Of a DNA stretch of 64,000 nucleotides, positions 3,119-61,970 are shown in pieces; position 1 is the first letter of the stretch, and every line of letters begins with the position of its first letter. Origin of the DNA: Trypanosoma brucei (taxonomy: Eukaryota); contig CH464491.1 of NCBI GenBank assembly GCA_000002445.1, positions 3,968,001 through 4,032,000 of the forward strand, in the 5' to 3' direction. The position numbers were made by a program, and so were the translations under genes. Below the pieces are notes generated by a model. That model saw only the letters and a program-made list of their open reading frames with translations. It searched no databases and was not told the origin of the DNA.

Positions 3119-3166
3119 TATATATATATATATATACATACATACATACATACATACACATACACT
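3119..3166. repeat. Compound microsatellite, (TA)n followed by (TACA)n
   Basis: Read directly: atatatatatatatatatacatacatacatacatacatacacatacac. It sits in a 3.3-kb low-complexity intergenic region (1862-5153). Confidence 0.95.
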
Positions 3167-5153
3167 TATATATTTATATATTTATATAAATATGAAGTTG
3201 TTTCATCACTTTCCCCACACATACACACACTCCTCTCCCCCTCCCCCCTCTTCCCATCATTCGTCATTGCTCCCTCAGCAACAGAGGGTCAATCGCTTTA
3301 AGAAAGAAAAACAAAACAAAACAAAAGCACCATCAAAAAAAAAACGAAGAAGCAAATTATGCAAGTCACAAGCGTTCGAAAAAAACAAACGTAAATATGA
3401 ACTTGCGTCTTACTTCTTGTCGCTGGCACCACCGTTACGTCTTCTTTCTTTTTTTTTCTTCCGTTTTTTTTCTTTCCTCTCTCTCATCGATTGTCGAATC
3501 ACCCGCCCCGGAAACGAGGAAAACATACACAACAACAACAATAATAATTATTATTATTATTATTAAATAATAGGGGGAAAAAAGAGGGAAAAAGCTAACA
3601 ACGAAAAACAAAACGCACGCACTCGCAAGACACATCTATGCAAGTGACAATGAAATTTCTATTAGAGATGAACTGAAAAACATCTATCCAATTGTTCAAT
3701 CACTCTTCTTCTTTTTCTTCTTCTTTTCCTTTCCTCTTATATGCAGACAAGTACATAACACATACGCGTACATAAATGTAAATACATTCATAGATCATAA
3801 CCGTTTGCTCATACGATCAGAAATATATATTTGTCTTCATGTTAGTATTTGTTTATTTACGTGTAAAGATATATATATATATATAACAGAAACAAGAAAA
3901 CAATAAGTAAATAGATATAAACCAAAATGGTCACAACCTCACTTACACCTTCTCATCCATTTATGCTTTCGCGATATTTTAGCAACGATGTTGTGATTTG
4001 TCATGTTTCATTTATCTCACGTTTTGCAGATATTCATTTATTTATATGTTATTTTGCATTTTGCTTCTCTCTTTTTTTTTCTTTTTCCTTTTTTATTTTT
4101 CTTTTTTCTCTTGCCTCCCCTTTTCTCTCCATTTTCTCTTATTATCTCTAAATTTCTTCAACATCCACAGGCATTTCTCCACCACCTCTCTTGTCTCCAC
4201 CCCTTCCTTACAATCAACTGACTGTGGAGTGCAGCAAACTTTAGAAGGGAAAAAAACAATAATAATAATAACACGCCACATCATTCCTCCTTTCAATTCT
4301 TTTTTCATCGTTTTCTCTTTCTTTTCTTTTCTTTTCTTTATCTCAGTCATTCATTTTATTTATACTTTAACATAGTTTTCTCTGATTATTTTTTATTTGG
4401 TATTATTTTGTATATTTACACATTTTATTCATATATCCACTGGCGGCCGACATTTATGTTGCTTTTGTTGAGATTCGAGACTGTTCTTTTTCCTTTGTAA
4501 TAATACAAATTTTGTGACAAAAAAATCAGTGTTACTGTTGTTGTTGTTCCTATTATTATTATAATATATATTATTATATATATACAAAACAATTGGTTTA
4601 CGAAACATATACACATATATTTTTAAAAAAAAGAAATAAAATATATGGTAGATGAAGAAAAAAAATTAACTAAAAAGAAGTGAATGACTGAGCGTATGAA
4701 GGATATGATGCCCAACGGAAGGAAAAATGGTAGAGGGAAATAAGGAAAAGGAATGAGGATACGAAGAGAACAAAAAAAATTCATAAGTCATACAATCCCT
4801 GAAATATATATATATATTTTTATTTATTTACACAACTTGCAATGCGTACCGATGAATAATAACAATAACAATATAATCGAAAAAGATTACCTACAGGTGG
4901 AAAATAACACCCCCCCCCCTCCCCCTTCACTCACCAGGACACCTCTGCTGATGAAACTGCTTGAGAGATTTTGTGATAAGTGTGAGCAAGCTCAAAAAAA
5001 AAAAAATGAACACAGTGAAAGAAAGGGATATGCAACTAATTTATTGGGGGAGGGGGGTTCCGGGAGACATGCCGTCACATCCACACAAAATGCATAGGAA
5101 ACGCTTCCACCCCACACCTCACACCCATCCCTTTGTGTATGCTGGCATTACAA

Positions 5154-42938: not shown

Positions 42939-43760
42939 CTACTCAAGGTCTGCCGCAAGCTCCAGCAACCGTTCTCTCAGTACACCTATTTGTTGACGTT
43001 GCGAAACGTCGGGAATACGATTGAGATCCTCGTCCGTCATGCTCACGATGCGCTCTACTTCTTCCTCGCTCAGCTTCGATAGGATTTCTATTATCTCATC
43101 ATTCTGCTCCCGCGGTGGCTCTACCTTCTCGCCCTCCCCCTCGGCTGGAGCCGCTGGAACCGGTGCATCCACTCTAATCCCTCCGTGCTGAATGGCCTCT
43201 GGTGGCAACGGTCCGAAAGGAAGCCGACCGGCATGCTGTAAAATCATAACAACAGCCAGTCGCAACGCAGGATTATTTTCCAGCAACTTGCGAGCCTCAT
43301 TCTTACGCTCCAACACCAGAACCCGTAACTGCTCCACGGCCTCATAGGCATCTGACTGTTGCATTCCCTGCAAGCACTCAAAAATGCTAGTATCATCGCG
43401 ACCGAGAACCGGATCGGTGTATCCACGAGGAAATGTCATCCCCCCGCGCGGGGCTGGTTGCTGTTGATGGGAAGCGTTCTGTTGACGTTGCCTCTTGCGG
43501 CCCCGCGTGGCCGCTGCGGACATAACTTTCATTGGTCGACCACCAAAGGATGTCCCGTTGAGGCGAGCAATGGCTTCCTCTGCACTAGTAGAATCCAAGT
43601 ACTCGGCAAAGCCGTAGCGAAAATCTTTCCCCACGGGCGGACCAAGCAACCGGAAGTCCGTTATGTGGCCCACACTTTCAAAGTGCTTACGCAAACTTCG
43701 CTCCTCCACAAAAAGCGGAACATCCGTGAAGAACACACTCGTCGTCTGTGTGGAGGACAT
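42939..43760 (-). CDS. Cleavage stimulation factor 64-kDa subunit-like protein (RRM, hinge and CstF-64 C-terminal domain)
   Basis: ATG at 43758-43760. The N-terminal RRM contains 'VFFTDVPLFVEERSLRKHFESVGHITDFRL…YGFAEYLDSTSAEEAIARLNG'. The hinge-like helical block is '…AYEAVEQLRVLVLERKNEARKLLENNPALRLAVVMILQHAG…'. The C-terminal 'EIIEILSKLSEEEVERIVSMTDEDLNRIPDVSQRQQIGVLRERLLEL' resembles the CstF-64 CTD (…LTPEQIxxLPPEQRQxIxxL…). Confidence 0.65.
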   Translation of the reverse strand: MSSTQTTSVFFTDVPLFVEERSLRKHFESVGHITDFRLLGPPVGKDFRYGFAEYLDSTSAEEAIARLNGTSFGGRPMKVMSAAATRGRKRQRQQNASHQQQPAPRGGMTFPRGYTDPVLGRDDTSIFECLQGMQQSDAYEAVEQLRVLVLERKNEARKLLENNPALRLAVVMILQHAGRLPFGPLPPEAIQHGGIRVDAPVPAAPAEGEGEKVEPPREQNDEIIEILSKLSEEEVERIVSMTDEDLNRIPDVSQRQQIGVLRERLLELAADLE

Positions 43761-44149
43761 GCTCGACAGTTAAAGCACGAAAATATATATATGTATACAA
43801 TCCTCACCCCTGTGCCTTCCTCTTCCTTTTTCTCGGTACTACCTAGTACGGACAACGCGAAACAGAAAAGTCGGTGGAAGGATAGAGCAATGGCACTGAA
43901 GTGGGGGGAAAGTGTAGTGGAAAGCGCAAATGAAAACAGAGCGAAAGAAGTGGCACATTATTTATCAAACAACACTACATACTATGCGTTACGGAAAGCT
44001 CACCACACGTTTTTCACTTACGAAGCGGTATTCCCGCAGTGTGTAACAACGTGGCAGCAAAACAGAAGAAGCCGCGCCGCTTTACCCTCTCACTGACACA
44101 TCTTTATTGACCTTTGTTACCCACACAAGCACCTATGTGCACAAATAAA

Positions 44150-46061: not shown

Positions 46062-49000
46062 TCACATCGCTGCAAGTTGATTTTTTGTTACTTCGTTCAA
46101 CACATCCTGGTCGGCCGCCTTCATGCGCGCCACGATTTCGCCCGCGTGCCTACCTCGGCCCTGAATCACGGGGTGCTGCTGCACGACCCACATTAACACC
46201 TTCTCGTGCACGCGGCGGGCCTCTACGTCATCGCCTCGAACGGGAAGGTTGCTGACGACTAGTGTAAGAACCTCCACCAGTCCCTGCTCCGGAAGAGTGG
46301 AGTGAAACAAGGAAAGAAGCGTGGTCGCTGCACTTACCGCGTTGCACGTAGTAGACTCATAGTCTCCTGTGCGCTGAACAGCAATGAAGCGAGTGAAGAG
46401 AGAACTTACCCGATGCACGAACTCCGGTGTACTCGGGTCGGGGTTACGGCCAAAGTACTGCAACAACAAGTTCATGAGGTAAAAAGCAGACTGCAAGAGA
46501 TCACAGTCTTCACGGCTCTGCGCGAAGTCCAAACAACTCTCGACAATTGTCGGGATGAAGCTTCCAATATGATTCGGCGCATGCTCCACTAATCCGCAAA
46601 GCAGCGCGAGACCGCAAGTAACCACGGAATCCTTCTCATTCTTCTGCAGCAGTTTCTCTAGAACGGGTGCGAACATGACCAAGAAGACAGGGGCAAATAC
46701 GTCACCCGCCCGCTCAAGCATTTTATCGAGGACATTGCAGGTGTCCGAAATGAGTGTGTCGGCCTCTTCCTCCTCACCCTGAAGCCTATCCAGCTCGTCC
46801 TCGTCGTTCTCACCAACCTGGCTCTCCAAACTTTGCACCCGATTCTCCATGGCCCGTTCTAGCACAGCGAGAACCTTTTCACCAATAACGGTAACCGTAT
46901 CTTGTGAGACAAGGCCTGGGGCACTGTCAATGCAACGGCTAATCACCACCGACATCGCACTTGACGCATCCAACTCATCCTCGTCGGCGAACTGGTTCAA
47001 CAACGGATCCATGATGGCAACAGCCAAGTGAGCCCGCTCATCAACTTCATAAGCGTTTAGAACCTCATCCAAAATCGCCGCCCCACTCTCGCGAATAGAT
47101 GAGTTTGACTGGAAACTGAGCAACTTCACTGCGGATTCTGCGATTGCCGGGAGGTGCGGCCCTAGGTGCTTTCCTAAGTACGTGAGCATGGCGCTGAGTA
47201 CACTAGCCGCAAGGTCCTTCTCCTCAATAAGACCGGTGTGCAGCTTAATCTTTTTCACACCCACGCCAGGGACAACAACCCGCATTGTTGCCACTTCTCC
47301 CCCACTCTTTCTTCCTTGCTCATCCTCGTCATCTTCCTCCCCCACCTCAGCGTTTTCCACCTCCATATCGCACTCCATATTCACCATCGAAAGAAGCACA
47401 GGCAGGACGACCTGCAGATAAGGGACCACATCCTCCCTCAGGCAGTCCGTCATGCAAGTCCACCCGCGCATGACATAACGCAACCGCATGTCGTCCTTGC
47501 ATTCTTCTTGCGACAGATGTTGTAGAAGATCACGCAAGTAGTTGCACATATGCTCCGCATACGGCCCGAACCCTTCTCTTCCAACACCACAGGCGAGAAG
47601 CGTTGTGCACTCGATGGCTTTGCACTTCATTTGAATAACATCCGGGGAGTCAGGAACTGCCAGTACCTCTTGAAACACGGGGACAAGGTTATTAACATAC
47701 GGTTTTAGCATGTCTTTGCAGGTTGATATGATAGAGGAAAGCGCCCCCAGGCAATCTTCACGGAGAAACTGATGCGGCGTTTGCCTCAGAAGAGACACTA
47801 GAGAAGCACATAGCCCCTCGACATAGCGTTCAAATTCTTTAACGAAGTGTGGGCTATCCTCTTCATCCTCTTCACATCGATCAAAGAAAGAGTCTAGGCA
47901 GCGTGCTGCCCTCGTTGCTACGGCAGGTATGGGGTCCTCGAGGCACTGAACGACAGCAGGTAAGATCATGTGGCATAGATTCTCCTGGAGTTGAGGGGCA
48001 AAGTCGGTAGACATCTGGGTAAGGCAATCCAACGCACTCGCACGGACATACTTCATATCATCCCGAAGAGCTGGTAGCACCATGCAAACAATGGACTTCA
48101 GGTGCTTTTCAAGCACAGAAGACATCCCTTCAGCGACATAAGTAATTAGAAGTAATGCCGCATTACGTTGCTTCCAGTCGGGGGACTGGATGTTTTCCGA
48201 GAAAAGCTGTTGAGCGAGAGCTTCCAGCTTTCTACCCCCGAGGGCGGAGGCTAATCGGTCGATACCACTGCTGCCGACGGTCTCGTCAAGGTCTTCATCA
48301 AGATCGTCCTCGTCAGTGTTCACACCTTTGACATCCCAGTCGTCAGGAATCGCGGGGTTAACGGTGTATTCGAAGAGCAAACGCAAAAATGATGTTGAAA
48401 AGTCTGGTACCTTCCGCGCTGTTTTTGGTTCACTCTCACAGTAGGTTAAGAGGGCCTCAATAGCCATGTGTCGAGCACCTGGTGCCACAGATGGTGCGGA
48501 AGCCACCTCCATCAGCCCTTGCAGCAATGGAGCAGTGTGCCGCTCAAAAAGCGTTGCAGAGTGAGACACACCCTCCGCCAACTTGCCAGTTAAAGCTTCC
48601 GCGTCCCCCCAATTCGATGCGTTGAGGGCATCTTGCACAGCCTGCAGTATCAGCGGAACCAAATCGGCAAGCTCACGAGACGGTCTGCACATGGTGAGAT
48701 TAAAAATCGCATCCAAAGCTGCTTTTCGCGAATCCACGGACGGGTCGAGAAGGCAGTTCTTCAGGCCTGCCGCTACCCGAACCACATTCGCCTCAAAATG
48801 CTCCGTTAAGGAAGGACCCGTCGCAGCAATAATCTCACAGCAGATTGTTTTCAGCTGATGCGCGGATTCTAAATCTTCAATTATCTGAAAGATAGACTTC
48901 CAAAGCTCATCCCATTCCTTTTCTATGTTTTTCAACTTAACAACAAGGGCACTCACACAGGCAGCAGCCAATGCACGCTGTGCACCAAATGCTGCTTTCC

Positions 49001-49280
49001 CCAGCACCTGTAGCATCAAACCCTTTACAGCGTTCTGCGTCTCAGCGTCTGCTGTGTCAAAACAGTCAGATTTATTTCCAAAAAGTTTTTTTAACAAGAC
49101 AAGGCCCATTTGCATAGTGGAGGTGTTTTCCGTTGACGCGCATAGCTCTGACAAGCAGCACATCATCCAAGTAGCATTCCCGTGAACAAGGGAATCATAC
49201 TGAGCCTCTGCGGATTTTCGAACCTCATTGTCCGCGGAGAGCAGGTTGGTGACAAGCTGGTTCAGCTGCTCTTGGTTCAT
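46062..49280 (-). CDS. Importin-β family nuclear transport receptor (karyopherin β3 / IPO5 / Kap121-like), 1072 aa
   Basis: ATG at 49278-49280. The N-terminal importin-N domain is 'QLVTNLLSADNEVRKSAEAQYDSL' (against IPO5 '[23 protein letters not shown]'). HEAT/ARM-like repeat character runs throughout. The length matches the Kapβ3 class, and an acidic loop (EDDEDEQ) is present. Confidence 0.85.
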   Translation of the reverse strand: MNQEQLNQLVTNLLSADNEVRKSAEAQYDSLVHGNATWMMCCLSELCASTENTSTMQMGLVLLKKLFGNKSDCFDTADAETQNAVKGLMLQVLGKAAFGAQRALAAACVSALVVKLKNIEKEWDELWKSIFQIIEDLESAHQLKTICCEIIAATGPSLTEHFEANVVRVAAGLKNCLLDPSVDSRKAALDAIFNLTMCRPSRELADLVPLILQAVQDALNASNWGDAEALTGKLAEGVSHSATLFERHTAPLLQGLMEVASAPSVAPGARHMAIEALLTYCESEPKTARKVPDFSTSFLRLLFEYTVNPAIPDDWDVKGVNTDEDDLDEDLDETVGSSGIDRLASALGGRKLEALAQQLFSENIQSPDWKQRNAALLLITYVAEGMSSVLEKHLKSIVCMVLPALRDDMKYVRASALDCLTQMSTDFAPQLQENLCHMILPAVVQCLEDPIPAVATRAARCLDSFFDRCEEDEEDSPHFVKEFERYVEGLCASLVSLLRQTPHQFLREDCLGALSSIISTCKDMLKPYVNNLVPVFQEVLAVPDSPDVIQMKCKAIECTTLLACGVGREGFGPYAEHMCNYLRDLLQHLSQEECKDDMRLRYVMRGWTCMTDCLREDVVPYLQVVLPVLLSMVNMECDMEVENAEVGEEDDEDEQGRKSGGEVATMRVVVPGVGVKKIKLHTGLIEEKDLAASVLSAMLTYLGKHLGPHLPAIAESAVKLLSFQSNSSIRESGAAILDEVLNAYEVDERAHLAVAIMDPLLNQFADEDELDASSAMSVVISRCIDSAPGLVSQDTVTVIGEKVLAVLERAMENRVQSLESQVGENDEDELDRLQGEEEEADTLISDTCNVLDKMLERAGDVFAPVFLVMFAPVLEKLLQKNEKDSVVTCGLALLCGLVEHAPNHIGSFIPTIVESCLDFAQSREDCDLLQSAFYLMNLLLQYFGRNPDPSTPEFVHRVSSLFTRFIAVQRTGDYESTTCNAVSAATTLLSLFHSTLPEQGLVEVLTLVVSNLPVRGDDVEARRVHEKVLMWVVQQHPVIQGRGRHAGEIVARMKAADQDVLNEVTKNQLAAM

Positions 49281-51330
49281 GGGATGTAGATACTTTTGAT
49301 CTTAAGAAATCTTTTTACAAGAAAAGGGAAAGACTCTCCCGTTCTGTCCCTTTGATCGTTCCCCTGGACGTTCACAAGGTCGATGTTTATTTCGTTAAAG
49401 ATAACCAATTGTTTCTTTCTTATTTCCTTCTTACTCCTTAATTTCTCTTCCGGTTTACAGCTGTCTCCCTTTGTTCACACCTTACGTTTGCAATCGTACT
49501 CGTGGCTATACCACGCGGTAAACCCAAGTGGAGAAAAAGTGTTTCAGAGAAAATTTGATTGGTGTGCTGTTGGGGGGGGGGGAGAGTTGCGCACCAATTC
49601 ATATTGAAGCGAAAACGGTAGCAGAAGTAACAGCAACAATTTGTTTTAAAAGGGAAGCAATGCCCCAGAAGCATTACCCAAAATAAACTACTGTGTAAAT
49701 ACAGGGGGTTCATAATTATGCAGTCGATAAATAAACTAAGAGGACGTGGAATCGCCGTAGAAACCAAACCAACACACGAAAAAAAAAAGAGACTGTGTAA
49801 AAACACGAACTAATAACAAAAGCAGGACAGGCAGTAGAAAATATGCTGTTATTTGTTTCATAGTAGCATATATTACTTCCATGCTAAAACAAAAAGATGG
49901 TTGATGTGTCCGTGGTCGTAGACAAACCCCCGGCGTAGCAACTTGCAAAACGGAAAAAACAGGCAACATGGTAAGTGTTTCACGCACGTTAGAACACAGT
50001 TTACATAGAGGGAGAGCAGGCCACATGCAATTAATTTCGAAATAAAAAAAACTGTTATCCGAGAAAAATTGGTGGGAGAGTAGCTATCCTGTGAGTTGCA
50101 CCAGTTCAGTTACAGTCAAAGGATATGTCACACTGCGCCTGTAAGTTGTTCAAAATGCTCTGACCGCTCCATCTGAGGGTCAGATAAACCACTTACGAAG
50201 AGCCCATCTTTGCTTTGTCGTCTACGTGGGTTCAGTCATACAACAGCATATGGTACGTCCGTGACCCACCGCGGAAAACGAAAACTGTCACTGCACAGAA
50301 CATCGCATAACTTCGGCAACCGAGGTCACTGGAAGTGCGTATGATAGTGGAACAAGTATAGATACAAGTGTGCACCGGGTAACGTCACTTGTGGTGCCGA
50401 AACCGAGACGACTGTATTCGGTAGCAACATCATTTCTCGCATCACTGCGTGATCAAGAATGCACAACAGCCATTTTATTGTATAAATGCGAGCGTACACA
50501 CAACAGTACGAACTTTTTTAAAATTTAAGCTGCAGAGTTTAGTACACAGAATGTGAGGAGGCTAATCCCTTGGGACCGTTACCTAACAAGATTCCAGAAA
50601 ATTTAACTTTCTAGAAACGATTGTACAATGTAGTCTCCACCCTTAACCCTGTAGCAGTAAAAGCTGCAGGTACTCGAGAGGTAGGTCACTATTCTGTCAA
50701 GCTGTCCCCTGCTCGAACCATAATAGAAGATCGGGTGTGCAAATGCGTGAGAGAAGTAAATTTCTTCATCCGCTGGCCTGGGGCGAGGGTCTCGGAAGCC
50801 GTGACAGCATACGACAAACGTATGACACATTGTAGCGCCCTTCTTTATCACCTGTATCCATGATAATCCCGTTTAGTCATACTGTATAAACTAGTCCAGC
50901 AAAATTACGCAATCACACCTTCAATAACCTACAGCGGTACTCTGCAGTGGGCAGGCTCCGGCGTTAGCGTGGGTTCCAACGGCATGAACGAGTGATAGAA
51001 ACCCTCCCTCGCTACGTAGAAAAGAACACAGTTTTGCGCATGCAAACTACACACAATATTCAACAACGAGAAAAAAACTAACACTTGGTCGCGGCGCAAT
51101 GTCCTTTGGAAAAGCTGTATATATGGCAAAAGCAGGGTCACAAATTTTTGAAAGCAAGGTCGTCCCATTTGTTGCAGGTTGTAATTTTGGCATTATCACA
51201 TGAGAAGATAGTGCGTGAAGAGGCGACACTTCTAGTAGAGCCCGGTTACCCAAGAAAAAAACAAGGAACACAAAATAAGAGAGTACCTTCTTAGCCAAAG
51301 AAGTGGAAGAAACGACATAAAATACATATA

Positions 51331-51723
51331 TCACGATTCTTTCGTTCTTGTTCCTTTTTCCTTCCTAAGCAACTCGTTGTTGACCATAACATAAGGATGT
51401 CCACATATTTTTTTGCTGTGCCGCGTATTGTTTCTAAGAAGGTACTGGGATAGCCAAGATATAGGGTGCGTATTTCCAGTAGGTCCGTAGCGATGGGAAA
51501 CCTCGTCGGGTTCCAAAGCGCACTGCTGCTGACGCTTTACTAATTCGTACAGGGCTGGAACGAGTGTTGGGAAGACGTTTTCACGCAAATATGTGACATT
51601 TTCTCCCTCACACGATGCATTGACAGCTGTCTCGACATCCTCATATCCGCACCAAATCTGCTCTTCAATCAGCCGAATCATCATAGCCTCACTAAGAGCC
51701 TGTGTATCCGCCGATACCTCCAT
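51331..51723 (-). CDS. Small Dpy-30-motif (RIIα-like dimerisation/docking) protein
   Basis: The ORF-track start is TTG. The ATG is at 51721-51723 (MEVSADTQALSEAMMIRLIEEQ…). 'VTYLRENVFPTLVPALYELVKRQQQ' fits the Dpy-30 motif (YLxxxVxPxLxxGLxxLxK). Confidence 0.5.
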   Translation of the reverse strand: MEVSADTQALSEAMMIRLIEEQIWCGYEDVETAVNASCEGENVTYLRENVFPTLVPALYELVKRQQQCALEPDEVSHRYGPTGNTHPISWLSQYLLRNNTRHSKKICGHPYVMVNNELLRKEKGTRTKES

Positions 51724-54700
51724 TGTAGTTACGTCTATCAACCCCTAAAAAGAATCAAAAAGTAAGAGGTTGTTATGTTTAAGAATTGATGTGCGTGCAA
51801 GTAGGGGCAAACATCCATAGGTACATTGTGTTTAAGCGGTCGCATCACAGCTCAGCTTCAAAAAAAACGATCCCATTATTATAAATAACTGGCAGTTAAG
51901 CACCCCCAGGTTATGTGTATATGTGTACGTGCGTTTGTGCATATGAATGTGCGTACTTATATAGTGGGTAAATTGGAAACGCAAGGAAACGTGTTGACAA
52001 AAAATTAAACGCATCAGCAACGACGAAGAGAAAAATCCAAATAAACAACAGGGAAGTCTTTTGTAAACCACGCACGTTCCTCCACGTACTATGCGACAGA
52101 AATTTTTATTTATCGATACACCAAGACAGTATTTGCTAAGGAATTGCCACGCAGGTTGATGTGAAGGATAAGATATATCCATTTATTAACTAAATGGACG
52201 AAAGCGGATGGAAGTGTCAAACAATCAAGGAAAAATTAAATGCGCCCAGAAAATCAACGATTTTCACTGGTCGTACGAATAGCAACTTCCATTATACCTC
52301 AATAAAGAAAAAATAGCCCTGGGAAAGTGAGGTAGCTAGAACTGTTACTACTTGCATAGTACGCCTTTTCAAGCAAGCAACTTCAGGCGGTATACCTACC
52401 AACTTATCAAGTCACCTGAGATCAGTGGGGAAATCAAGATATCTAGTAACAGAAAACATGTCCACAATGCAGAGAGAGTGAATTAGATCCACAACATGAA
52501 GAAAAGGATGATTGAGTCAGGAAAAAAAAATCACGGCAAACGTGAGTTTAGTTTTGACATAGCGGTGGAGCGGTACATCAATCCCGAAAAAATACGAAGC
52601 GCAACTCCGTGTGTCCGATGATCAAACGACACTTCTTCACCACGGCACAAATCATAGGAAGGGCACCAAACGACGATGCTACAAAACCTTCAGACCATTG
52701 CATAAGTTCATTACCCCATAGCTCACCGTCGGAAACAAGTTTGCAGAGATATGAGTTACTCAGCCCTGCTTACCGGTAATTTCCGTGATGTCAAAAACGT
52801 CGAAGGTGAAAGAAGGACGAAAACCCCACCCTCGGCAGCTGTCGCTTCCCATTACACGCACCTTGCAGATAATCTTCCAGTTTGTCGCAAACAGGGCAAC
52901 AGCTGCGCCAACAGCACACAAATACAAAGCCACGAAACCGCCTCCTCCTCTGCCTCCCCCCCCCCCAAATATCACACACAATACACTCAAAGGTGTGTGG
53001 TAACGTCAAAATTCTGACGTCTTTTTCGGTGATGCAGCATGCCAAGCCTGAGACTCCTGATGAAATACTGAAGAAGAAAATTAACATTAGCAGGTCAAAT
53101 TTTCGTAGGTTTAATCTCGAGTTTTCCTACAAACTTCAGGAAACCAAGGTTCATAAAGATCATTAGCAACATTTGTTACATAAGCCAAACAGATGCATTA
53201 CTTCAAATAACGAGGACATATACAACCAAAGGCACTGTGCACCGATGGGTGGCACCGTCGTGCAACGACACAAACGCTTTCTGCCGGATGACATATGTCG
53301 GGAAATGCATTTTATCTACTGAAGAGGGAGATAGTGCAACCCTCTTTGATGAGACTGGCCCCTTCGTATATACGCCCTTCCTCCTTACCACCTGAAACGG
53401 TACGACATCGTAACTGTTGCGTCGTTATTATTCCACTCTCATACGTCGACTTCTTCTCATCACAAAACTGGCGCCACGGAACCATTACACAGGGGTGGTA
53501 CAACCCGTGAGCAACAAATAACATACGCAACATCAGTTTTAGAGGGACGTTACAAATTATTTTGGATCATTTCCGGGAAGAGTGAATTTTGACTCAACAA
53601 ACTAAGCGTTGCGCAGCCAATAAATGAGAAATAAGACCCCCTGGCCAACTCGCAGACAAGTGCTCACCACACAAAAGGTTGGTTGTGCAGGGGGGAACGT
53701 GTGAAGACATGAAAATAACGTGGTGACGTCAATACTGGAGTTGTGGTGTCACATATGACTTCCGCTTCACCATATACTTTGCCAACCCACATATCGCTCT
53801 TATACCTAATGGAAAGTAGTGGAGCGCCCAAGAAATACGAAAACTCGCCAACAAGCAACTTCCAAGACATTACAATCACTGTCTACATGTGCTCGAACGG
53901 TCTTCAAACGAACCTCTTCTTGAGGTAGATAGGCTACATTCAGACATAAGCGCATGTTCTTCGAGTAATGAAAGGATGCAAGTTGTATGACAGCACGACT
54001 CTTGTGACCACCAAAGGGTGGCACCCGTTCAAAAGTAAAAAAAAGATTGACGCGTCCACCCAAGATATTTGTCCGCTGCATTATTGCATGGAGACAGGAA
54101 ACGGCAATCGGTTCTTTCGACCGCGCTAGGTGAAAATGCCAACTTCCCGAAGTCTCAGCTCTATCGCCTTTAGTGGAGCCGTTTTCCCCTTCATGCGCTT
54201 TACGACCACAAAGGGCACACAGATCTGTATACCGAATAGCAAGTTCTACCACGTTTGAATAAAGGTGCACAGATGATTGTACAGAGGGGAATGTCATTGC
54301 ACAACCTTTCTACCCTTTAAGCCCCTTGTCCCTGCTGCCCCTCAGCACCCAGTTAATTGACCGTTCAGCCAGGTTCATCCTATTTTTCCAATGGAAACAA
54401 CACTGCCGGATGCAAAAGAGTCAAAACAGGGGAGCAGAAACCAGATTCCTCCCCCTCCTTCCCCCTGAGAATTAATAGCGATACATGAGCTCCCATGTTG
54501 CCCCTAAAGGCATACAAGAAACTAGGCCAAAGGTGAACCACATGGGAAGCGGCCGGAGTAGCAGAAAAACAAATCGATTCTGACCACTTCAACACAGAGC
54601 CAGGGCTCCGCACCTCCCCAAGGTAAGGCGAGACAACTACTCACAACCACCTCACCATAATTATCCTGTGGAGGAAAGACCGAGGTCTTGGTCCGCCGCG

Positions 54701-55361
54701 GGCGGCGCAGCACATCCACAGAGGGACAAATATCGCAGCTAGCGGCTTCGCGGGAGCGGAGTCACCAACAACAACACCAACGGCACCGAATTACCACCTA
54801 CACACCCCTGGAAGAACGCCACTGGGCTCGTGGCGGGGACGGCGCCTAACCATCCTCTCGCCCACTGTTTCCATCACTTTTCTTCAGGGCCTCTCCCTCC
54901 CATTCTCATTTCTCTTGCCCTTAGGCGTCGGCGGCCCTTCGTTTGCGACCATTGTGGGATGCGCCTGTGTTTCCAAACCCCACATGGGGCTAAGCAAACG
55001 CGACGCAAGTGGGGGACGGGCGCGGCACTCGGCGGCACCGTTCCACTGCGGGGGGAGAGACCATGCAGACTTTCTCGAACCCGCATAAATCGTACGATCG
55101 GGCCCTTTACAAAACATTGTTCACGACGAGAACGTTCCAACCAGCAGCGGTTCAGTAAGTGCGACAACGTTTCCCCCCAGTCGTTGCGCTGGCTTATGCC
55201 TTCGAGTGTCGCATGGAAGTGCTGGCCCCCCTCTTATCAAGTGTACGGCTCATCCGATTGCACGCTGTAGCGCGCGCATTGAGCACACCGCCGCCGCGGC
55301 GCGCGTCTGACTAGCAAGTGAAGTCCACCGGCGCCAACTTAATGCACTAGAACCCCCTGGC

Positions 55362-55900
55362 GATGCCGGCCACCTCAACGTGGTGCCAGGGTCCAGTCTC
55401 CCGTATCATCGGGGGAAGCCAAGAGCCAGCAGCGTTCCTTTCATGGGGAACACTGCTGTGCTCCGGCTACAGCGTCATACAGCACGGGGATCAGAAGCGT
55501 CTTGCTGGGACACCGTTTTTCATTTGTCGGTCCCTGGGCACGTGACAGCGTTGCCATCGACGGTATCCGGAGTTTTCCCTATGACGTTGTGTACGTTTGG
55601 AAAACATCCAGTGACATTCTCGCACCCTTTTCTATTGTCAGGGATTCTGTTGGGTTACTGCGGGCCGATGGGGCTGCATTTGCCCGCTTCACGAATATCA
55701 GTCTGTTGCCGTTGCATGTTGTCGAAGCGACCACATATTTCTTTCCAAACAATACAGATTTCTCGGTTCATAATCCGTGGCATCCACCAGGCGGTGATTG
55801 TACACTGTTTCCACTGAATCGTTGTGCAACCTGCCTGTCCCACACTTCCATTTTCATATCTTTGTAATCTTCCGCACGTATGAGTCTTATTCAAGCGTGG
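55362..55900 (+). mobile_element. 5' end of an ingi/RIME/DIRE-family non-LTR retroposon (Pr77-like hallmark). The element's downstream extent is undetermined and it is probably degenerate.
   Basis: 'CCCTGGCGATGCCGGCCACCTCAACGTGGTGCCAGGGTCCAGTCTCCCGTATCATCGGGGGAAGCCAAGAGCCAGCAGCG' at 55362-55441 matches the conserved ~77-nt 5' signature shared by ingi/RIME, DIRE, L1Tc/NARTc and SIDER elements; this is recalled from memory and not verified. The downstream sequence has only short, frame-shifted ORFs, and I found no poly(A) tail or target-site duplication. Confidence 0.45.
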
Positions 55901-57597
55901 GAGAGGGGTTTACAGCCGCATCGGAGGTTTGCGCAACGTCGACAGCCCTCATGGACATACGCGATGGCGGTAAGATCCGACTAAGGGCTGCTAGCAATTG
56001 TTGAAGCCGTATTGCTGTGCGGCAACTTTGTTGAAGTTCCAAATGCTGTGTTGTAAGCCGAACCTTAACGGTTCTTTCCACCGATCTTCATAGGCACCTC
56101 GTGAGCGTCAGTAGTTCGTATGAGTTTTCATATTTCATTTTCTTACAAGCTGCTAGGGCATGGATGTTCAGACGACACATGATTCTGTTTTGATGTTTCG
56201 ATTCTCTTCTACGGACTCATATCAAACAGTTAAAGCAAGAGCGTAAATTATTTGTTTCTGGGATGTTACTGTGTTTCGCTGCCCAGATAAGGGGAGGCAG
56301 CCGCCGAGACACGTGGTAGCTGATGCGGTGATATCATGAGTTGAAAAAGTGTTATCGTTCGGAGCTATATCATTTTTGTGTTTATAAACACTAACTATTG
56401 TGAGTAGCTATGCCGCTTGAGAGACGAAGGGCATAGGTCAGGGAAGTGCCTCACCCGTTACCGGCCACTGGCAGAAACTTCGTCCGCCATAGCCAGCGGA
56501 GTGCTGTGAAACATTGGAGTATATATACATATACATATGCTGGTGATGCATCACCCATATGGGTCTTAAACCTTTAGTCGTCACAAAAGTGCACACCACC
56601 TCTTCAATGCCACAGGATCCAGCGGTTGCTTCCGCATAGCACTCAGCCCTTCCTCAATTTAGTGAGATCAAGCTCTTAGTAGCGTTTATCTACAGGGTTA
56701 AGAAAGTTCGTGTTCCCAGTGTTGTATTGTACTGTGGTGTTCCCCTACTCACTCGTGGGGCAGCTCCAGCAGGTTGAAATAAGATCGTGGGGTAGAAGTC
56801 AATCGTTTGCCCAACCCACATAAACTCCGCCATTTCTGCCCTTTTTTTCCTTGTACGTTCCCTCGGTCTCCCTTCCGAATTCACCCCACTTAAGTTTTGT
56901 TCATACATGAAAAAGAGGTATCCGACACTGGAGGTTCAGGTTATCCATTGTGTTTTTCCGCTAAATTACACAGGATAAGATAGGGTGATGGTACATATTT
57001 GCTGAAGTGTAGTGATATCCATGCGTACACCCCGCGCCATCTTTACAGGGGATGCATCATGTTCGGGCTTCGCCGCTCAGTGCGGGCACTTGGTGCCATG
57101 GCCAGTTTTTGGTTGACTCGAAAATGGTTGTTGATGCAGCGCCGCATTAAAGTTTCTCCTTTGGTATGTGGTTGGATGGTGCGGCATCAGGAAAGCGCGT
57201 TGGCAAGAGCACCGGCACCAATGAGTTACGCAAGTCAGGTTACGCGCATTGGCTTATTTACCCCTAGCATTAAAGTGTGGCGTGACAGAGTTACTAGTGA
57301 AAGCGGCAATTTGCATCCTATCTTGTAGATGGGCGATGGCCCGCGTATCTTAGACGTGTGAAATGACTTCTATTCATGGCTCTGCTAGAAGGTCTTCCAT
57401 AATGAGTATACGAGCATGCCGCTACCTTCTTACACATGTAAGTTGTCCTGTGATGTGTTGGTAAAAGGTAGAGCTTATGGACCTTGATTATGCAGTTGTT
57501 ATACTAGTTCTATTCACGGCACAGAAGGTTGAAAATGCATCAACGAGCGTTTTATAGAATATACTGGGATTACTTTCCTCTAGAACGTGGTGCAACT

Positions 57598-58899
57598 CTA
57601 TTGATGTTCCAATGCCAGAACTTTTATAGACCCCCCTTTACGTGAATGGACAGAGGTGTTCTTTGTAGTGGGAAATCGTCGGATAATGCGTTCCCAGGGA
57701 TCGAAGAGTGCATAGTTGTATTCCAGAAAGATGCAACCCTCAAGTATTCCGTGTTTTGTGTAATTCCGTAGCCGTATTATAGTGGTGTTTTCTAGGTGAG
57801 AAACGCTGCCTGCTTTTGGCTTCTTCTGAACACCGTAAAGTACAGGAAAGCGTGCCAAGGCGCTCAGGCAGCCGGCGCCGAGAGGGTGTAACGAAGCAAA
57901 TACTGTGGAAGTGAGTGGTAAAGCTGTGCCACATTGATGTGGAAGGAGAGGGGGAAATACTGTGCGGCGCCCTTCCTTGTTTCGATGGATGCAAATTTTC
58001 AGAACCCGCAACCATTGATACTCGCAAAGTGCGCATTTACACAAAGGCGAAGAGTGACAACACTTTGACTAGTGATTGAAACGTTACAAAAAAGGTGCCC
58101 CCAACATGGGTATGAAAGATATTTAGAAACTCTAAGAAGGTCAGTGCCAGCCACGCCATCGTGATGCCAGGGGTTGCTGCAAGAAGGGGAAGGCCAAGCA
58201 TTTACACGCATCCCTGCTTGTATGAATTGCGGCAGCAGGCGGCAGTCCAGCACACACGACACAACCCTCCTGAAAAAAATTACGGATGGAGGCGCAAAGA
58301 AGTGGAACCTGGTAACGGAAAGTCCCTAGTGTCCGGAGGCAATTTTTCAGAAAGGCTGCCCTGGCACGACACCAAAAAATAGTAGCACATGATTGTGAGG
58401 GAAAGAAAGGCCACAACGAACCAATAGCCTAGTACCAGGAGATATTCGCTTATTTATTCTGATACCCAAAGCTTGTAAGTGCGATGAAATAAATGGAGCC
58501 AATGGGCACAGTGGAACATGAAGGAGGCCAATCCGAGGAGCCGGAGCAACCCCTTCTGAAACTTTTCAAACTTCCAGATTAAAGCAAGAAAAATCCCATC
58601 GTGAAGAACAACTACGTGGCCGCAGAAGAGAGCCTCGGAATCCCTTACTACAGTTTTGTGGCTCGCCACCAACTCTCTGAGCCCAAACAAAATGTTGCGC
58701 TGCTAAAAGGGGCCGAAAGGATTACCAAATCCTGAAATGAGCACGCAGGGAAACGAGAGCGCACCCTACCTACACAGTTTTCATGCAGAGAAAAAGTTCT
58801 AGGGAACCGCTCGATCCTTCTGTAAGCAAGCGAATGAAAATCAAGCGGCAATGGGGCACGTTCCGGTTGAACGGACGGGGAAGGAAAAGTGCTGTGCAC
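57598..58899 (-). pseudogene. Possible frameshifted pseudogene or degenerate retroelement ORF. It is a chain of abutting minus-strand ORFs in alternating frames.
   Basis: Six consecutive minus-strand ORFs (57598-58044, 57740-58036, 57999-58262, 58141-58416, 58454-58690, 58648-58899) tile 1.3 kb in shifting frames. The sequence is high-complexity with no homopolymers. No motif recognised. Confidence 0.2.
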
Positions 58900-61800
58900 T
58901 ATGCATTCGCAAGTGTGTGAATCTTCTTGCCTTCATCTTGAGCATTCACTCGCGGGCCCCCTATGGGAGGCACATTTGTGCAGAGCCTCTTAGTGAAATC
59001 CAAGGTACCTGATTTATGAGGCGCATCCCAACCACTGGAGCACCATCCCCCCACAAAACTCAGTCGTTGGTGTATTGGGTGATTGTGAAAATGAAGTCAA
59101 CCTCTTATGCCTACGAAATGCTCTCCTGTATCCCTCGATGTCAGGTAGTATCCCACAGCCATTTCATATGCAACTTTATCAACGCATCCCAGTCCCGCCT
59201 CTTTGGGCGTGTGCACTCTCTCCATCCACCGGAAGGTGAGGCTGAGAACCACTAGGCGATGACACCCTAGCACACCCTTGCTTGGGTGATTCCAAAGTAG
59301 GAGGTTCTAGGCGTTTCATTCTCGGGAATTCCACTCTGACGACGCTACTGCTCCGAGTTCTATGAATATTTTTCCCTTCTGACTTTACTGTTTATTGAAC
59401 GTGCTCTAACACTCCCCCTTGGCGGCTTCAACGCGAGTGCCGAAAGCGTTTGGTACCTTTACATTATCAATTTCCCTTCACATAGCAGTGAGATGCAACA
59501 AATCACGAGTACGTACAACACCCGACCGACACTCTGTTGTTCACCATGGTGACCCACGGTGCAGGTTAAACGCACCACGCACTGCCGTACCCTTGAAGTG
59601 ACAGCCTCCGCACCTTTTACTTCTTAGAAGATACCACAAACAGAATTGCCATCCTCCTCCAATTTCCAACCTAGTCCCTCTTTTTCTAACCTCGGACTCA
59701 GCGTTAAAGGGAGAAATAACATTGGGTGCAAAGGGAAAACTTGTACACGCGTTGATTCAGATGCAAGCCCATCCAACTGACTAATGAAAACTAGGGCTTG
59801 AGGGGGGGGGGCACATTTTTATGCAATACACGACAAGCTAATTCCACAGAAGCTGAAGAATTACGGCAAAAAGTGGCATCAACCCCAGCACACTATGCGG
59901 TTAACCTGCAAAATGGAGGCTGTGCCTATTATCACAGTGGAATAAAATCTCTGGTTGGACGTGATTCTGCTTCTTTGCCCCCCTTTTTGGCCATATGCAC
60001 GCCCTCTCCCGTTTTTTATTCTACACTGCGAATATTTACTTCCAACAATGTAGAGCATCAGCAAGCAAAACGCACATATTATCACCAAGCATTGTGACCC
60101 TTCACCCATGCTGTTACTTTCCTCGTCAACGCCATAATGACCCATATGCACTCTTTTTTTTTCTGTCTCAAGAAATTCGTTCGCTTCACCTAGTTAAGCA
60201 TAAATTTCACGACAAAATTTCATCGCCACCACCACCTCCTCCCTATTGAAGTATTGCACTTCTTTATTGACCCGGATACTGCATGTTACGGTGGATGAAC
60301 CCCCGCTTTTGTTTGGGATTTTCGTGAAACGAAGGAGTACAGCTCCACCCTCGCTTCCTTCCCCCGTGCACTTCGATGATGCAACATCCTTGCGTGTTCC
60401 AACAGATAATGCAAACTGGTATTCCACATTCATTTGACAGCGACCAAAAAGAAATCGACAGCGCGTTAAATCACCATTAACCCGATCTGAATCCGATTCC
60501 GAGACTCCCGATTCGCAACTTCCCGTTACGTTATGATGCCACGGCAACAACCGTAAGAAGGCCTCCTCCCGTACCGGCATCCGTTTAAGGTCCTCTGAAC
60601 GAGATCGCTTCTTAAGCCTAAAATAACGGTTGTTAAATTCATTTAGCAATCTTCCTAAGCTCACACTGTAAACGGTAATATTTGTCTTTAACGCCTTCAT
60701 ATATTCCCTCACCCGTCGTCTCCCCTTTATCTTCAGCTCACTCGTGGGATCAATTACTCCCTTAATGTGCTGTTCCAACCAATAGGAATGCTACTCAAAG
60801 AGAGTGATATTGGCTAATAGTTGCCTCTTTATCTGTGCCTTGCGATAGAAGACTTCGTAACCGAAAACCCCCGGATTGTTCATATCTATCTGTGTAGCCC
60901 ATCCTGTATTTTTTTCCGTTGCTCCACAACTGTAAAATATGTGTAACACGAAATAACAAGCATATACCCTTTTCATTCCAGGAATTATCTGCCTCTTCCG
61001 CTTGATTTCGGTGTTACACGTCCAAACCTACTTTGTCCCACCCACCCCCTACGCACACACTGAATAAGTAAATAACCTAATCAATTGACGTCAAGGCTTA
61101 AACCCCCCCTAAAACTGGCGAAGGCGCGAAACCAAGGGGAGAACGAGGTCACATATGTGTTGGGTGGAAAGTAATAACTGGCGCGGGAGCTGTTACATTA
61201 TTTGACATGCGTATGTTTGTTTGGTAGGGCACCGGAAAGAACTGCAGCCCCAGGGCCAAGAACTTTATCCGTGGAATTGGTGATAAGGGCATCCTGTTTG
61301 TTGAAGCATTGCTTTTCTAGCCGTTGCAACTCCCATCATAACCCGCACAAATTGCCCTAATATCCTGAATGTAATTCTACCTACCAAATATCGGAACGTT
61401 GGGGGTGCTTTCGCTAGGCGGGTGAGAAAAAATACTTCACACAATGTAGTAGCACCCGCATCAGATGAATGCTTGATCCTGCTTAATCTTTGCTGTGCGC
61501 ACCAAACATCCAAACTCCACTAGCATCGATATTCTTCCCGCGACAAACGAGGTTCACGTTGTCATCAGAGTCAAATAACTGTGGGAGAGGAAGCCGCCAC
61601 CGCAATCGGACCCATCATGCCGCGCAAATTCTACTCAATAAGAGGCATGTGAGGGGGCGGTGGCGACGTGACGGGTAAAAGTTACGACGAAAAGAGTGTT
61701 ATGTGTGTCTTTGAAAGTGTGGCGAGCGTTGAAGCGACAGCTCTTTAAGTTGTTCCCCAAGTTTGTTTGAGGGGACTGTCGGTGCGGGAATGAAAGCAGA

Positions 61801-61970
61801 CAGTTCACGCGGAGAATGGTAAAGACGAAAAGTTGTAATCTTCTTTTAGAAGCACTACACAAATGAAAGCTAACGTGTGCAGGTGGTGACGCATGCGCTT
61901 GGATACTCAGTTCTCCGGGAGACGACGCTTTGCGTACACGAGAATACGCAAGAGCCTGTGAGTGGAAGGG

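What the first reader, a model, noticed from the sequence alone, without database searches (positions are those of the whole stretch)
55362..55445. Pr77-like retroposon 5' hallmark (ingi/RIME/DIRE) inside the gene array
The segment CCCTGGCGATGCCGGCCACCTCAACGTGGTGCCAGGGTCCAGT…GTATCATCGGGGGAAGCCAAGAGCCAGCAGCG matches, to my recollection, the conserved 5' signature at the start of trypanosomatid ingi-clade non-LTR retroposons. The same signature is a Pol II promoter and HDV-like ribozyme motif in L1Tc. It is inserted antisense to the surrounding minus-strand transcription unit. If it is still active, it could drive antisense transcription into the upstream genes (Dpy-30, importin). No poly(A) end is visible, so the element is either a long degenerate DIRE-like copy or is 3'-truncated.
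Basis: partly seen in the sequence, partly recalled or inferred. Interest (0 to 1): 0.6.

Follow-up and report, generated by a model that had tools for sequence, protein, structure and literature searches.

The report
Relic ingi/RIME retroposon 5' end
The flagged motif is a genuine, well-preserved 5' end of the common Trypanosoma brucei ingi/RIME retroposon family, but it is a tail-less relic with no coding part, sitting among other decayed retroposons in a gene-free gap, so it is an ordinary feature of this genome.

Summary
It matches a Pr77 profile (E=1.5e-16) and differs from bona fide T. brucei RIME/ingi copies at only 2 of the first 80 nt.

Similarity to RIME/ingi runs for about 218 nt at 91-95% (blastn alignment 55355-55567). 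The sequence then switches to a 320-nt segment (55573-55894) that is unrelated to RIME or the ingi 5' end. That segment recurs at the same junction in two strand-switch regions of other Trypanozoon chromosomes, at 80-84% identity.

There is no poly(A) tail, no target-site duplication, no RIME 3' half and no endonuclease or reverse-transcriptase remnant on the + strand. It is therefore neither a RIME, nor an ingi, nor a long DIRE.

A true DIRE does lie nearby, on the opposite strand (57886 to 57007). The insertion is shared with T. equiperdum and is absent from the syntenic loci of T. vivax and T. theileri.

The promoter motif (CGTG at +25..+28) and the helices of the HDV-like ribozyme fold are intact. 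However, published reporter tests of the ingi/RIME 5' end in T. brucei found no promoter activity. Any transcript would also run away from Dpy-30 and importin, not into them. Verdict: real, already known in kind, low interest.

The parts
55355..55434 (+). Pr77 hallmark, the 5'-terminal signature of ingi/L1Tc-clade retroposons. It contains CCACC at +16..+20 and the downstream promoter element CGTG at +25..+28. It also carries the helices of the HDV-like ribozyme fold: P1 1-7/31-37, P3 16-18/27-29, P4 44-49/56-61 and P2 10-15/72-77.
   Evidence: nhmmer E=1.5e-16. 78 of 80 nt are identical to the RIME copy L004 and the ingi 5' end L003; the differences are at nt 44-45 only. Helices paired: P1 7/7, P3 3/3, P4 6/6, P2 5/6. 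The minimum-free-energy fold gives P1, P3 and P4 in the same arrangement as L1Tc.
55355..55572 (+). Segment homologous to nt 1 to about 218 of T. brucei ingi/RIME (most of the 'RIME A' 5' half).
   Evidence: blastn over 55355-55567: 94.8% to L004 (RIME), 93.0% to L003 (ingi 5' end carrying the 2A-like DVEENPGP motif) and 90.6% to L002 (RIME). Alignment A1 shows the divergence point, about 218 nt in.
55573..55894 (+). A 320-nt 'X' segment. It is not RIME, not the ingi 5' end, not L1Tco and not TbSIDER1. It is joined to the ingi 5' part at the same point in two other Trypanozoon loci. It appears to be non-coding and its origin is unknown.
   Evidence: Window 55359/55365-55894 is 80-82% identical to L001 8224-8755 and L005 8046-8580. 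Within the X segment, identity to those copies is 82.6-84.1%. Substitutions are spread evenly over codon positions: 14/19/23 and 14/18/19. No Rfam match. No match to the RIME 3' half or to TbSIDER1.
57007..57886 (-). Neighbouring DIRE (degenerate ingi-related element) on the opposite strand. It has a decayed Pr77 plus 5' region (57886 to 57688) and an AP-endonuclease pseudogene (57559 to 57007). It points toward the + strand element.
   Evidence: Local alignment to RIME nt 1-188. blastn of RIME nt 61-136, E=5e-5. tblastn with the ingi endonuclease N-terminus P0020, E=2e-9, showing in-frame stops and a frameshift.
58140..58207 (+). A second, strongly decayed Pr77-like signature, about 250 nt from the head of the minus-strand DIRE. 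The P1 5' strand is lost and CGTG is retained.
   Evidence: nhmmer E=7.9e-4. Local alignment to RIME nt 10-37, 24/28 identical. Its fold is worse than all shuffles.
54575..54620 (+). Possible third Pr77-like remnant. This is weak and uncertain.
   Evidence: nhmmer E=0.031. Weak local alignment to RIME nt 7-70.

Best explanation
This is the intact 5' end of an ingi/RIME-lineage non-LTR retroposon of the Trypanosoma brucei group (subgenus Trypanozoon). It consists of the Pr77 hallmark plus about 140 nt more, followed by a 320-nt non-ingi tail.

The element has no coding capacity, no RIME 3' half, no poly(A) tail and no target-site duplication. The copy was inserted on the + strand into a roughly 10-kb gene-free stretch of a minus-strand gene array, after the Trypanozoon lineage separated from T. 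vivax and T. theileri.

The same stretch collected other retroposons that are now decayed. These are a DIRE on the minus strand and one or two further Pr77-like scraps.

Shown here: the element's identity, extent, orientation, the shared junction, the lack of retroposon 3' features, its presence in T. equiperdum and its absence from T. vivax and T. theileri.

Inferred: it is an immobile, functionally neutral relic. The ribozyme would form only in + sense RNA, which the host's minus-strand transcription does not make. The promoter function of this sequence was not detectable in T. brucei reporter assays. At most, the element contributes low-level antisense RNA that would feed the RNAi pathway, which already targets ingi sequences.
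For: - Identity: with E-values from 2e-13 to 6e-93.
- Extent and junction: alignment A1 and blastn. Identity to RIME/ingi is 91-95% up to about nt 218. After that, only L001 and L005 match, at 80-82%.
- No coding remnant on the + strand: tblastn with L1Tco peptides and with ingi-clade proteins, including the full-length endonuclease/RT/RNase H proteins P0041 and P0053.
- No poly(A) tail or target-site duplication. No RIME 3' half.
- Genuine RIMEs fetched for comparison do have both: L002 has the duplication TTGTTTCAATA and L004 has TGAAAGGAGGT.
- Lineage: the T. equiperdum contig L006 is 98.9% identical to window 49000-55382 and ends 28 nt inside the Pr77. The syntenic T. vivax and T. theileri loci have no Pr77 or ingi remnant.
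- Retroposon-rich surroundings.
- Literature: the ingi/RIME 5' end gave no reporter expression in T. brucei (PMC1874656, discussion). ingi/RHS sequences supply about 52% of siRNAs (PMC3447711). PMC3185411 notes that Pr77 is also found joined to sequences unrelated to retroelements in the T. brucei genome.
Against: - The Pr77 itself is unusually well kept: 78 of 80 nt match the RIME (L004) and ingi 5' (L003) copies fetched here, and the promoter element and all ribozyme helices are intact. This is compatible with recent insertion but also with retained function.
- The origin of the 320-nt tail is unexplained.
- No full-length T. brucei ingi DNA could be obtained. An origin of the tail from a diverged internal or 3' part of an ingi relative is therefore excluded only at protein level, and against the RIME 3' half.
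- No expression, small-RNA or chromatin data were available.
Confidence: 0.85

Rival explanations
1. The ingi-5'-plus-X unit of about 540 nt is a member of a distinct non-autonomous retroposon subfamily. Like RIME it would borrow the ingi 5' end, but with a different 3' module, and it would be mobilised in trans by ingi. This refines the main explanation rather than contradicting it.
For: The same junction occurs in the window and in L001/L005, on different chromosomes. Homology between the window and those loci begins exactly at the retroposon 5' end, as expected for independent retrotransposition rather than segmental duplication. Divergence is similar in the two parts, at about 20% and 17%.
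Against: Only two independent loci were found, because L001 and L005 are paralogous segments sharing about 2 kb at 95%. None has a poly(A) tail or a target-site duplication. The common 3' boundary at 55894 has no retroposon-like end.
Confidence: 0.25
2. One reading: the Pr77 is an active RNA polymerase II promoter that drives antisense transcription through neighbouring genes.
For: CGTG at +25..+28 and CCACC at +16..+20 are intact. These positions are essential for L1Tc Pr77 activity in T. cruzi (PMC4748587). TBP binds Pr77 (PMC8190864).
Against: In T. brucei, the first 500 bp of ingi, RIME A and the first 55 bp gave no reporter transcription (PMC1874656, citing its reference 39). The direction is away from Dpy-30 and importin; transcription would instead run toward the minus-strand DIRE and the synaptobrevin-like gene. 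ingi RNA is a major RNAi target (PMC3447711).
Confidence: 0.08
3. The element is the head of a long + strand DIRE or a full ingi whose coding part has decayed beyond recognition, spanning 55355 to about 60700.
For: The 12.6 kb from 49.3 to 61.9 kb has no ORF of at least 200 aa and is riddled with stops in all + frames.
Against: The sequence departs from ingi at about nt 218, before the 2A-like and endonuclease start that L003 shows. No + strand hit was obtained with any ingi-clade protein, although the same queries did detect the much more decayed minus-strand DIRE 1.1 kb away. Homology with L001/L005 stops at 55894.
Confidence: 0.04
4. The gene-free gap is an internal boundary between two same-direction transcription units. 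In this reading the retroposon relics, including this Pr77, are tolerated or used there as they are in strand-switch regions.
For: The related copies L001, L002 and L005 all sit in divergent strand-switch regions, with the Pr77 pointing the same way as the downstream gene cluster. The literature reports accumulation of these elements at such regions (PMC4748587, PMC1868937). In the window there is about 10 kb without annotated genes, whereas T. theileri has genes tightly packed there.
Against: Here the intact Pr77 points against the gene direction. There is no tRNA or other RNA gene. No chromatin data were available. T. brucei untranslated regions and intergenic stretches can be long.
Confidence: 0.1

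Closest known systems
T. brucei RIME (about 500-bp non-autonomous retroposon: ingi 5' ~250 nt plus ingi 3' ~250 nt plus poly(A), with a target-site duplication)
   Same: The first ~218 nt are 91-95% identical, including a complete Pr77 that starts at the canonical CCCTGG. Like RIME, the element has no coding capacity.
   Different: It lacks the last ~30 nt of the 5' half, the whole 3' half, the poly(A) tail and the target-site duplication. It carries a 320-nt unrelated tail instead.
T. brucei ingi (5.25-kb autonomous LINE; PMC3447711)
   Same: Same 5' untranslated region and Pr77 (93% to L003).
   Different: It diverges before the 2A-like peptide and the AP endonuclease. No endonuclease, RT or RNase H remnant follows on the + strand.
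DIRE (degenerate ingi/L1Tc-related elements)
   Same: A Pr77 at the 5' end of an immobile, decayed element, and co-location with other relics. The copies L001 and L005 lie in strand-switch regions, as is typical of DIREs.
   Different: DIREs are defined by recognisable, stop-ridden coding remnants, and none follows this Pr77. The neighbouring minus-strand element (57886 to 57007) does meet that definition. This Pr77 is also far less decayed than is typical for a DIRE.
L1Tc Pr77 / L1TcRz of T. cruzi (dual internal promoter and HDV-like ribozyme; PMC1874656, PMC3185411, PMC4748587)
   Same: 39 of the first 43 nt are identical. It has the same CGTG at +25..+28, the same P1 and P3, an equivalent P2 with a compensatory change (A-U in L1Tc, U-A here), and a P4 of different sequence that still pairs.
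   Different: It belongs to a different host and element lineage. Promoter activity of the ingi/RIME version was not detected in T. brucei (PMC1874656). No Rfam HDV-type model matches it.
TbSIDER1 / TSIDER1 (short degenerate retroposons of African trypanosomes)
   Same: It is short and non-coding, and starts with a Pr77-type signature.
   Different: There is no sequence similarity beyond the hallmark. TbSIDER1 carries a mutated promoter element (PMC4748587) and ends in poly(A) with a target-site duplication (supplement of PMC4035085).

Membership tests
Pr77 hallmark (5' signature of ingi/L1Tc-clade retroposons) | A conserved sequence of about 77-79 nt that starts with CCCTGG | tested here: met
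   nhmmer E=1.5e-16 over profile positions 1-79. blastn to L1Tco E=2e-13. 78 of 80 nt identical to the RIME (L004) and ingi 5' (L003) copies.
Pr77 hallmark (5' signature of ingi/L1Tc-clade retroposons) | Downstream promoter element CGTG at +25..+28, with the upstream CCACC at +16..+20 (PMC4748587) | tested here: met
   Both are present at exactly these positions.
Pr77 hallmark (5' signature of ingi/L1Tc-clade retroposons) | Promoter activity (RNA polymerase II, initiation at +1) | not testable with these tools
   The literature reports no reporter expression from the ingi/RIME 5' end in T. brucei (PMC1874656, discussion).
HDV-like ribozyme (L1TcRz type) | Nested double-pseudoknot helices P1, P2, P3 and P4 that can form | tested here: met
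   P1 7/7, P3 3/3, P4 6/6 and P2 5/6 pairs. Across 12 family sequences, 79.5% of cells pair, against 34-51% in slid controls. There are 29 double-change cells against 11.4±2.7 in shuffles. Caveat: the helices were derived by me from these same sequences, guided by the verbal description in PMC3185411.
HDV-like ribozyme (L1TcRz type) | Match to a curated HDV-type covariance model | tested here: not met
   No Rfam family matched at the gathering threshold or at E<=10 over 55200-55700.
HDV-like ribozyme (L1TcRz type) | Self-cleavage immediately 5' of nt 1 | not testable with these tools
   PMC3185411 mentions activity of the ingi/RIME versions only as unpublished data.
RIME | ingi 5' half of about 250 nt | tested here: inconclusive
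   Only nt 1 to about 218 are present, at 91-95% identity.
RIME | ingi 3' half of about 250 nt | tested here: not met
   No blastn match to RIME nt 250-520 anywhere near the element.
RIME | 3' poly(A) tail and a target-site duplication of about 12 bp | tested here: not met
   There is no A-run of at least 6 between 55355 and 58087. No repeat of the upstream flank lies next to a plausible 3' end. The control RIMEs L002 and L004 show both features.
ingi (autonomous) | A long ORF with a 2A-like peptide, AP endonuclease, reverse transcriptase and RNase H | tested here: not met
   The sequence leaves the ingi sequence before the 2A-like motif. There are no + strand tblastn hits.
DIRE | Degenerate but recognisable ingi/L1Tc coding remnants downstream of the Pr77 on the same strand | tested here: not met
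   None on the + strand. The same queries did detect the minus-strand DIRE at 57559-57007, E=2e-9.
TbSIDER1 | Similarity to the ~570-nt SIDER1 body | tested here: not met
   No blastn hit for TbSIDER1 or TvSIDER1 in the region. The same queries found the published TbSIDER1-alpha copy in L001 at 99.8%.

The most novel reading that the evidence does not exclude
The roughly 540-nt unit (ingi nt 1-218 fused to the 320-nt X segment) may be an undescribed RIME-like non-autonomous retroposon subfamily of the T. brucei group. Its older copies sit in divergent strand-switch regions. Its youngest copy, this one, keeps a fully intact promoter/ribozyme hallmark. Together with the convergent minus-strand DIRE it could form a local source of double-stranded RNA.
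Probability: 0.12. Interest if true: 0.3.

Novelty: already known. Interest (0 to 1): 0.12.

Why it matters
It matters little beyond annotation. The element marks a lineage-specific retroposon insertion in a gene-poor gap of a T. brucei-group chromosome, and it explains an assembly break in T. equiperdum. If the ingi-5'-plus-X unit proved to be a family of its own, it would add one more non-autonomous passenger of ingi. It would also give a handle on how the 5' hallmark is recruited by unrelated sequence, a point the literature mentions only in passing.

Tried and rejected
- Rfam searches, at the gathering threshold on the whole window and at E-value thresholds on 55200-55700 and 54300-60200, found nothing relevant.
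- Two attempts to fetch the same locus from other assemblies by exact protein (importin, and the 163-aa ORF) found nothing on record.
- A protein search with the ingi N-terminus returned only short T. theileri and T. grayi fragments. No full-length T. brucei ingi DNA could therefore be fetched. Full-length ingi-clade proteins from the representative library were used instead.
- A permissive tblastn (E<5, small word size) gave only noise and was discarded.
- The searches for a target-site duplication and a poly(A) tail were negative.
- No direct or inverted repeats of at least 30 nt lie in the 49.3-62.0 kb gap. Tandem-repeat scanning of the whole window found only short AT-rich arrays outside the gap.
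- The bacterial-type promoter and terminator scan is irrelevant to this organism.
- A test for coding constraint on the X segment found none.
- No pseudogene remnants of the T. theileri genes that occupy the syntenic interval (S28 peptidase and a 986-aa protein) were found.

Full report
**Observation**

The quoted sequence occurs once in the window, on the + strand.

Reference sequences were taken from papers, not from memory. These were the L1Tc Pr77 oligonucleotide (PMC1874656) and the T. congolense L1Tco, T. vivax ingi, and Leishmania and trypanosome SIDER sequences (supplement of PMC4035085).

- The first 43 nt match L1Tc Pr77 at 39 positions.
- blastn against L1Tco gives 82% over 77 nt, E=2e-13.
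- A profile built from 11 Pr77 sequences scores the site at E=1.5e-16.

**Organism and comparison copies**

A protein search with the open frame across the element returned five 'hypothetical, unlikely' proteins of T. brucei gambiense and T. equiperdum. Their loci were fetched as L001-L005.

The Dpy-30-motif protein of the window is 100% identical to that of T. equiperdum. The window therefore comes from the T. brucei group (Trypanozoon).

- L002 and L004 are textbook RIMEs of about 510 bp. Both have poly(A) tails, and their target-site duplications are TTGTTTCAATA and TGAAAGGAGGT.
- L003 is an ingi 5' end that runs into the 2A-like DVEENPGP motif and the start of the AP endonuclease.

**Anatomy of the element**

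Window 55355-55567 is 94.8%, 93.0% and 90.6% identical to L004, L003 and L002. That is close to the range the genuine copies show among themselves (94.7-97.2%).

In the first 80 nt the window differs from L003 and L004 only at nt 44-45 (AC to CU). These two changes extend rather than break helix P4.

About 218 nt into the element (around 55572) the sequence leaves ingi/RIME (alignment A1). The next 320 nt (55573-55894) match nothing in RIME, the ingi 5' end, L1Tco, TbSIDER1 or TvSIDER1.

The whole of 55359/55365-55894 is, however, 80-82% identical to L001 8224-8755 and L005 8046-8580, with the same junction. L001 and L005 are paralogous segments, sharing about 2 kb at 95%. They lie in divergent strand-switch regions of two different gene neighbourhoods. 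In those copies the P1 strands of the hallmark are destroyed.

Homology between the window and those loci starts at the retroposon 5' end. This fits independent insertion of a source element that already carried the junction.

Within the 320-nt tail, identity to L001 and L005 is 82.6-84.1%. Substitutions are spread evenly over codon positions (14/19/23 and 14/18/19), so there is no sign of coding constraint.

There is no A-run of at least 6 nt between 55355 and 58087, and no target-site duplication.

**Is it a long DIRE?**

No. tblastn with L1Tco peptides found nothing on the + strand downstream of the hallmark. Neither did tblastn with ingi-clade proteins from the representative library. That set includes two full-length proteins with endonuclease, RVT_1 and RNase H domains.

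The same queries did find a much more decayed element on the minus strand. Its AP-endonuclease pseudogene lies at 57559-57007 (E=2e-9, with in-frame stops and a frameshift). That is preceded by a decayed ingi 5' region, which aligns to RIME nt 1-188 from 57886 down to 57688. This is a genuine DIRE, and it converges on the + strand element with 1.1 kb between them.

A further decayed Pr77-like signature lies at 58140-58207 (+), E=7.9e-4. A doubtful one lies at 54575-54620 (+), E=0.03.

**Locus and age**

All ORFs of at least 200 aa in the window are on the minus strand, apart from one + strand frame (43359-44096) that overlaps the minus-strand RRM/CSTF2-hinge protein gene at 42939-43760.

The element sits in a stretch without convincing genes. 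On one side are the Dpy-30-motif gene (51334-51744) and importin (46062-49280). On the other is a synaptobrevin-domain gene (61971 to beyond 63941).

A T. equiperdum contig is 98.9% identical to window 49000-55382 and stops 28 nt inside the hallmark. So the insertion is shared within Trypanozoon, and it broke that assembly.

In T. theileri the syntenic interval is tightly packed: synaptobrevin-domain gene, S28 peptidase, Dpy-30, a 986-aa gene, importin. In T. vivax the Dpy-30/importin neighbourhood is conserved. Neither species has a Pr77 or any ingi remnant there. No remnants of the two extra T. theileri genes remain in the window.

**Function**

The sequence features needed for the published activities are present.

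- CCACC is at +16..+20 and CGTG at +25..+28 (PMC4748587).
- Helices P1, P2, P3 and P4 of the HDV-like fold can form.
- Across 12 family members these helices are supported by covariation. 79.5% of cells pair, against 34-51% when partners are slid. There are 29 double-change cells against 11.4±2.7 in shuffles.
- One caveat applies: I derived the helices from these sequences, guided by the verbal description in PMC3185411.
- RNAfold gives the same P1/P3/P4 arrangement as for L1Tc.
- No Rfam model matches.

Sequence competence is not activity. PMC1874656 reports that in T. brucei the first 500 bp of ingi, RIME A and the first 55 bp all failed to drive reporter transcription. ingi-type RNA is the largest siRNA source in T. 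brucei (PMC3447711).

The ribozyme can form only in + sense RNA, which host minus-strand transcription does not produce.

A transcript from this promoter would also run toward 64000. It would cross the minus-strand DIRE and then the synaptobrevin-domain gene.

**Comparison with known families**

The feature is a member of the Pr77-bearing ingi/RIME lineage at its 5' end. It fails the defining 3' features of RIME (3' half, poly(A) tail, target-site duplication). It also fails the coding features of ingi and DIRE, and it is unrelated to TbSIDER1.

PMC3185411 already notes that Pr77 occurs joined to sequences unrelated to retroelements at several places in the T. brucei genome, and this looks like one of them.

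The one open point is whether the ingi-5'-plus-X unit is a small family of its own. This could not be counted, because no T. brucei genome DNA collection was searchable.

**Verdict**

It is ordinary: a tail-less retroposon relic in a retroposon-rich, gene-free gap. The proposed regulatory effect points the wrong way and lacks support in T. brucei. Interest is low.

Noticed in passing
window 57007-57886 (-): A degenerate ingi-related element (DIRE) lies on the minus strand. It has a decayed Pr77 and 5' region, and an AP-endonuclease pseudogene with stops and a frameshift. It converges on the flagged + strand element.
   Followed up: yes
window 58140-58207 (+) and 54575-54620 (+): Two further Pr77-like scraps (nhmmer E=7.9e-4 and 0.03). 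The first lies about 250 nt from the head of the minus-strand DIRE, in a head-to-head arrangement.
   Followed up: partly
window 51745-61970: About 10 kb without convincing genes sits inside a same-strand gene array. In T. theileri (L011) the syntenic interval holds an S28 peptidase gene and is compact. A 986-aa gene between Dpy-30 and importin is also missing from the window. No pseudogene remnants of either were found.
   Followed up: partly
L006 1-28 (T. equiperdum CZPT02000409.1): The T. equiperdum OVI contig ends 28 nt inside this Pr77, so the repeat broke that assembly at the orthologous site.
   Followed up: yes
L001 6302-6872 (-) and L001 7603-9567 / L005 7431-9392: L001 is the T. b. 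gambiense chromosome-10 strand-switch region that carries the published TbSIDER1-alpha copy (99.8% match). About 2 kb around the ingi-5'-plus-X copy is duplicated at 95% in a different strand-switch region of T. equiperdum (L005).
   Followed up: partly
L002 5421-5614 (+): A second, decayed ingi 5' region (about 66% identical to RIME) lies 2.6 kb upstream of the intact RIME in the same divergent strand-switch region.
   Followed up: no
window 55311-55864 (+): Two overlapping + strand reading frames stay open for about 170 codons across the element. The frame that starts at element nt 1 is also open for about 154 codons in L001 and L005, despite 17-20% divergence. Substitution positions show no coding signal, so this is probably a composition effect.
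   Followed up: partly
window 55006-55079 vs L005 6923-6994: A weak 74-nt similarity (74%, E=1e-5) links sequence upstream of the window element to sequence about 1 kb upstream of the L005 copy. It is unexplained.
   Followed up: no
window 2001-4000, and 3117-3193: An AT-rich stretch (33% G+C, against 45-53% elsewhere) containing an (AT)n microsatellite.
   Followed up: no
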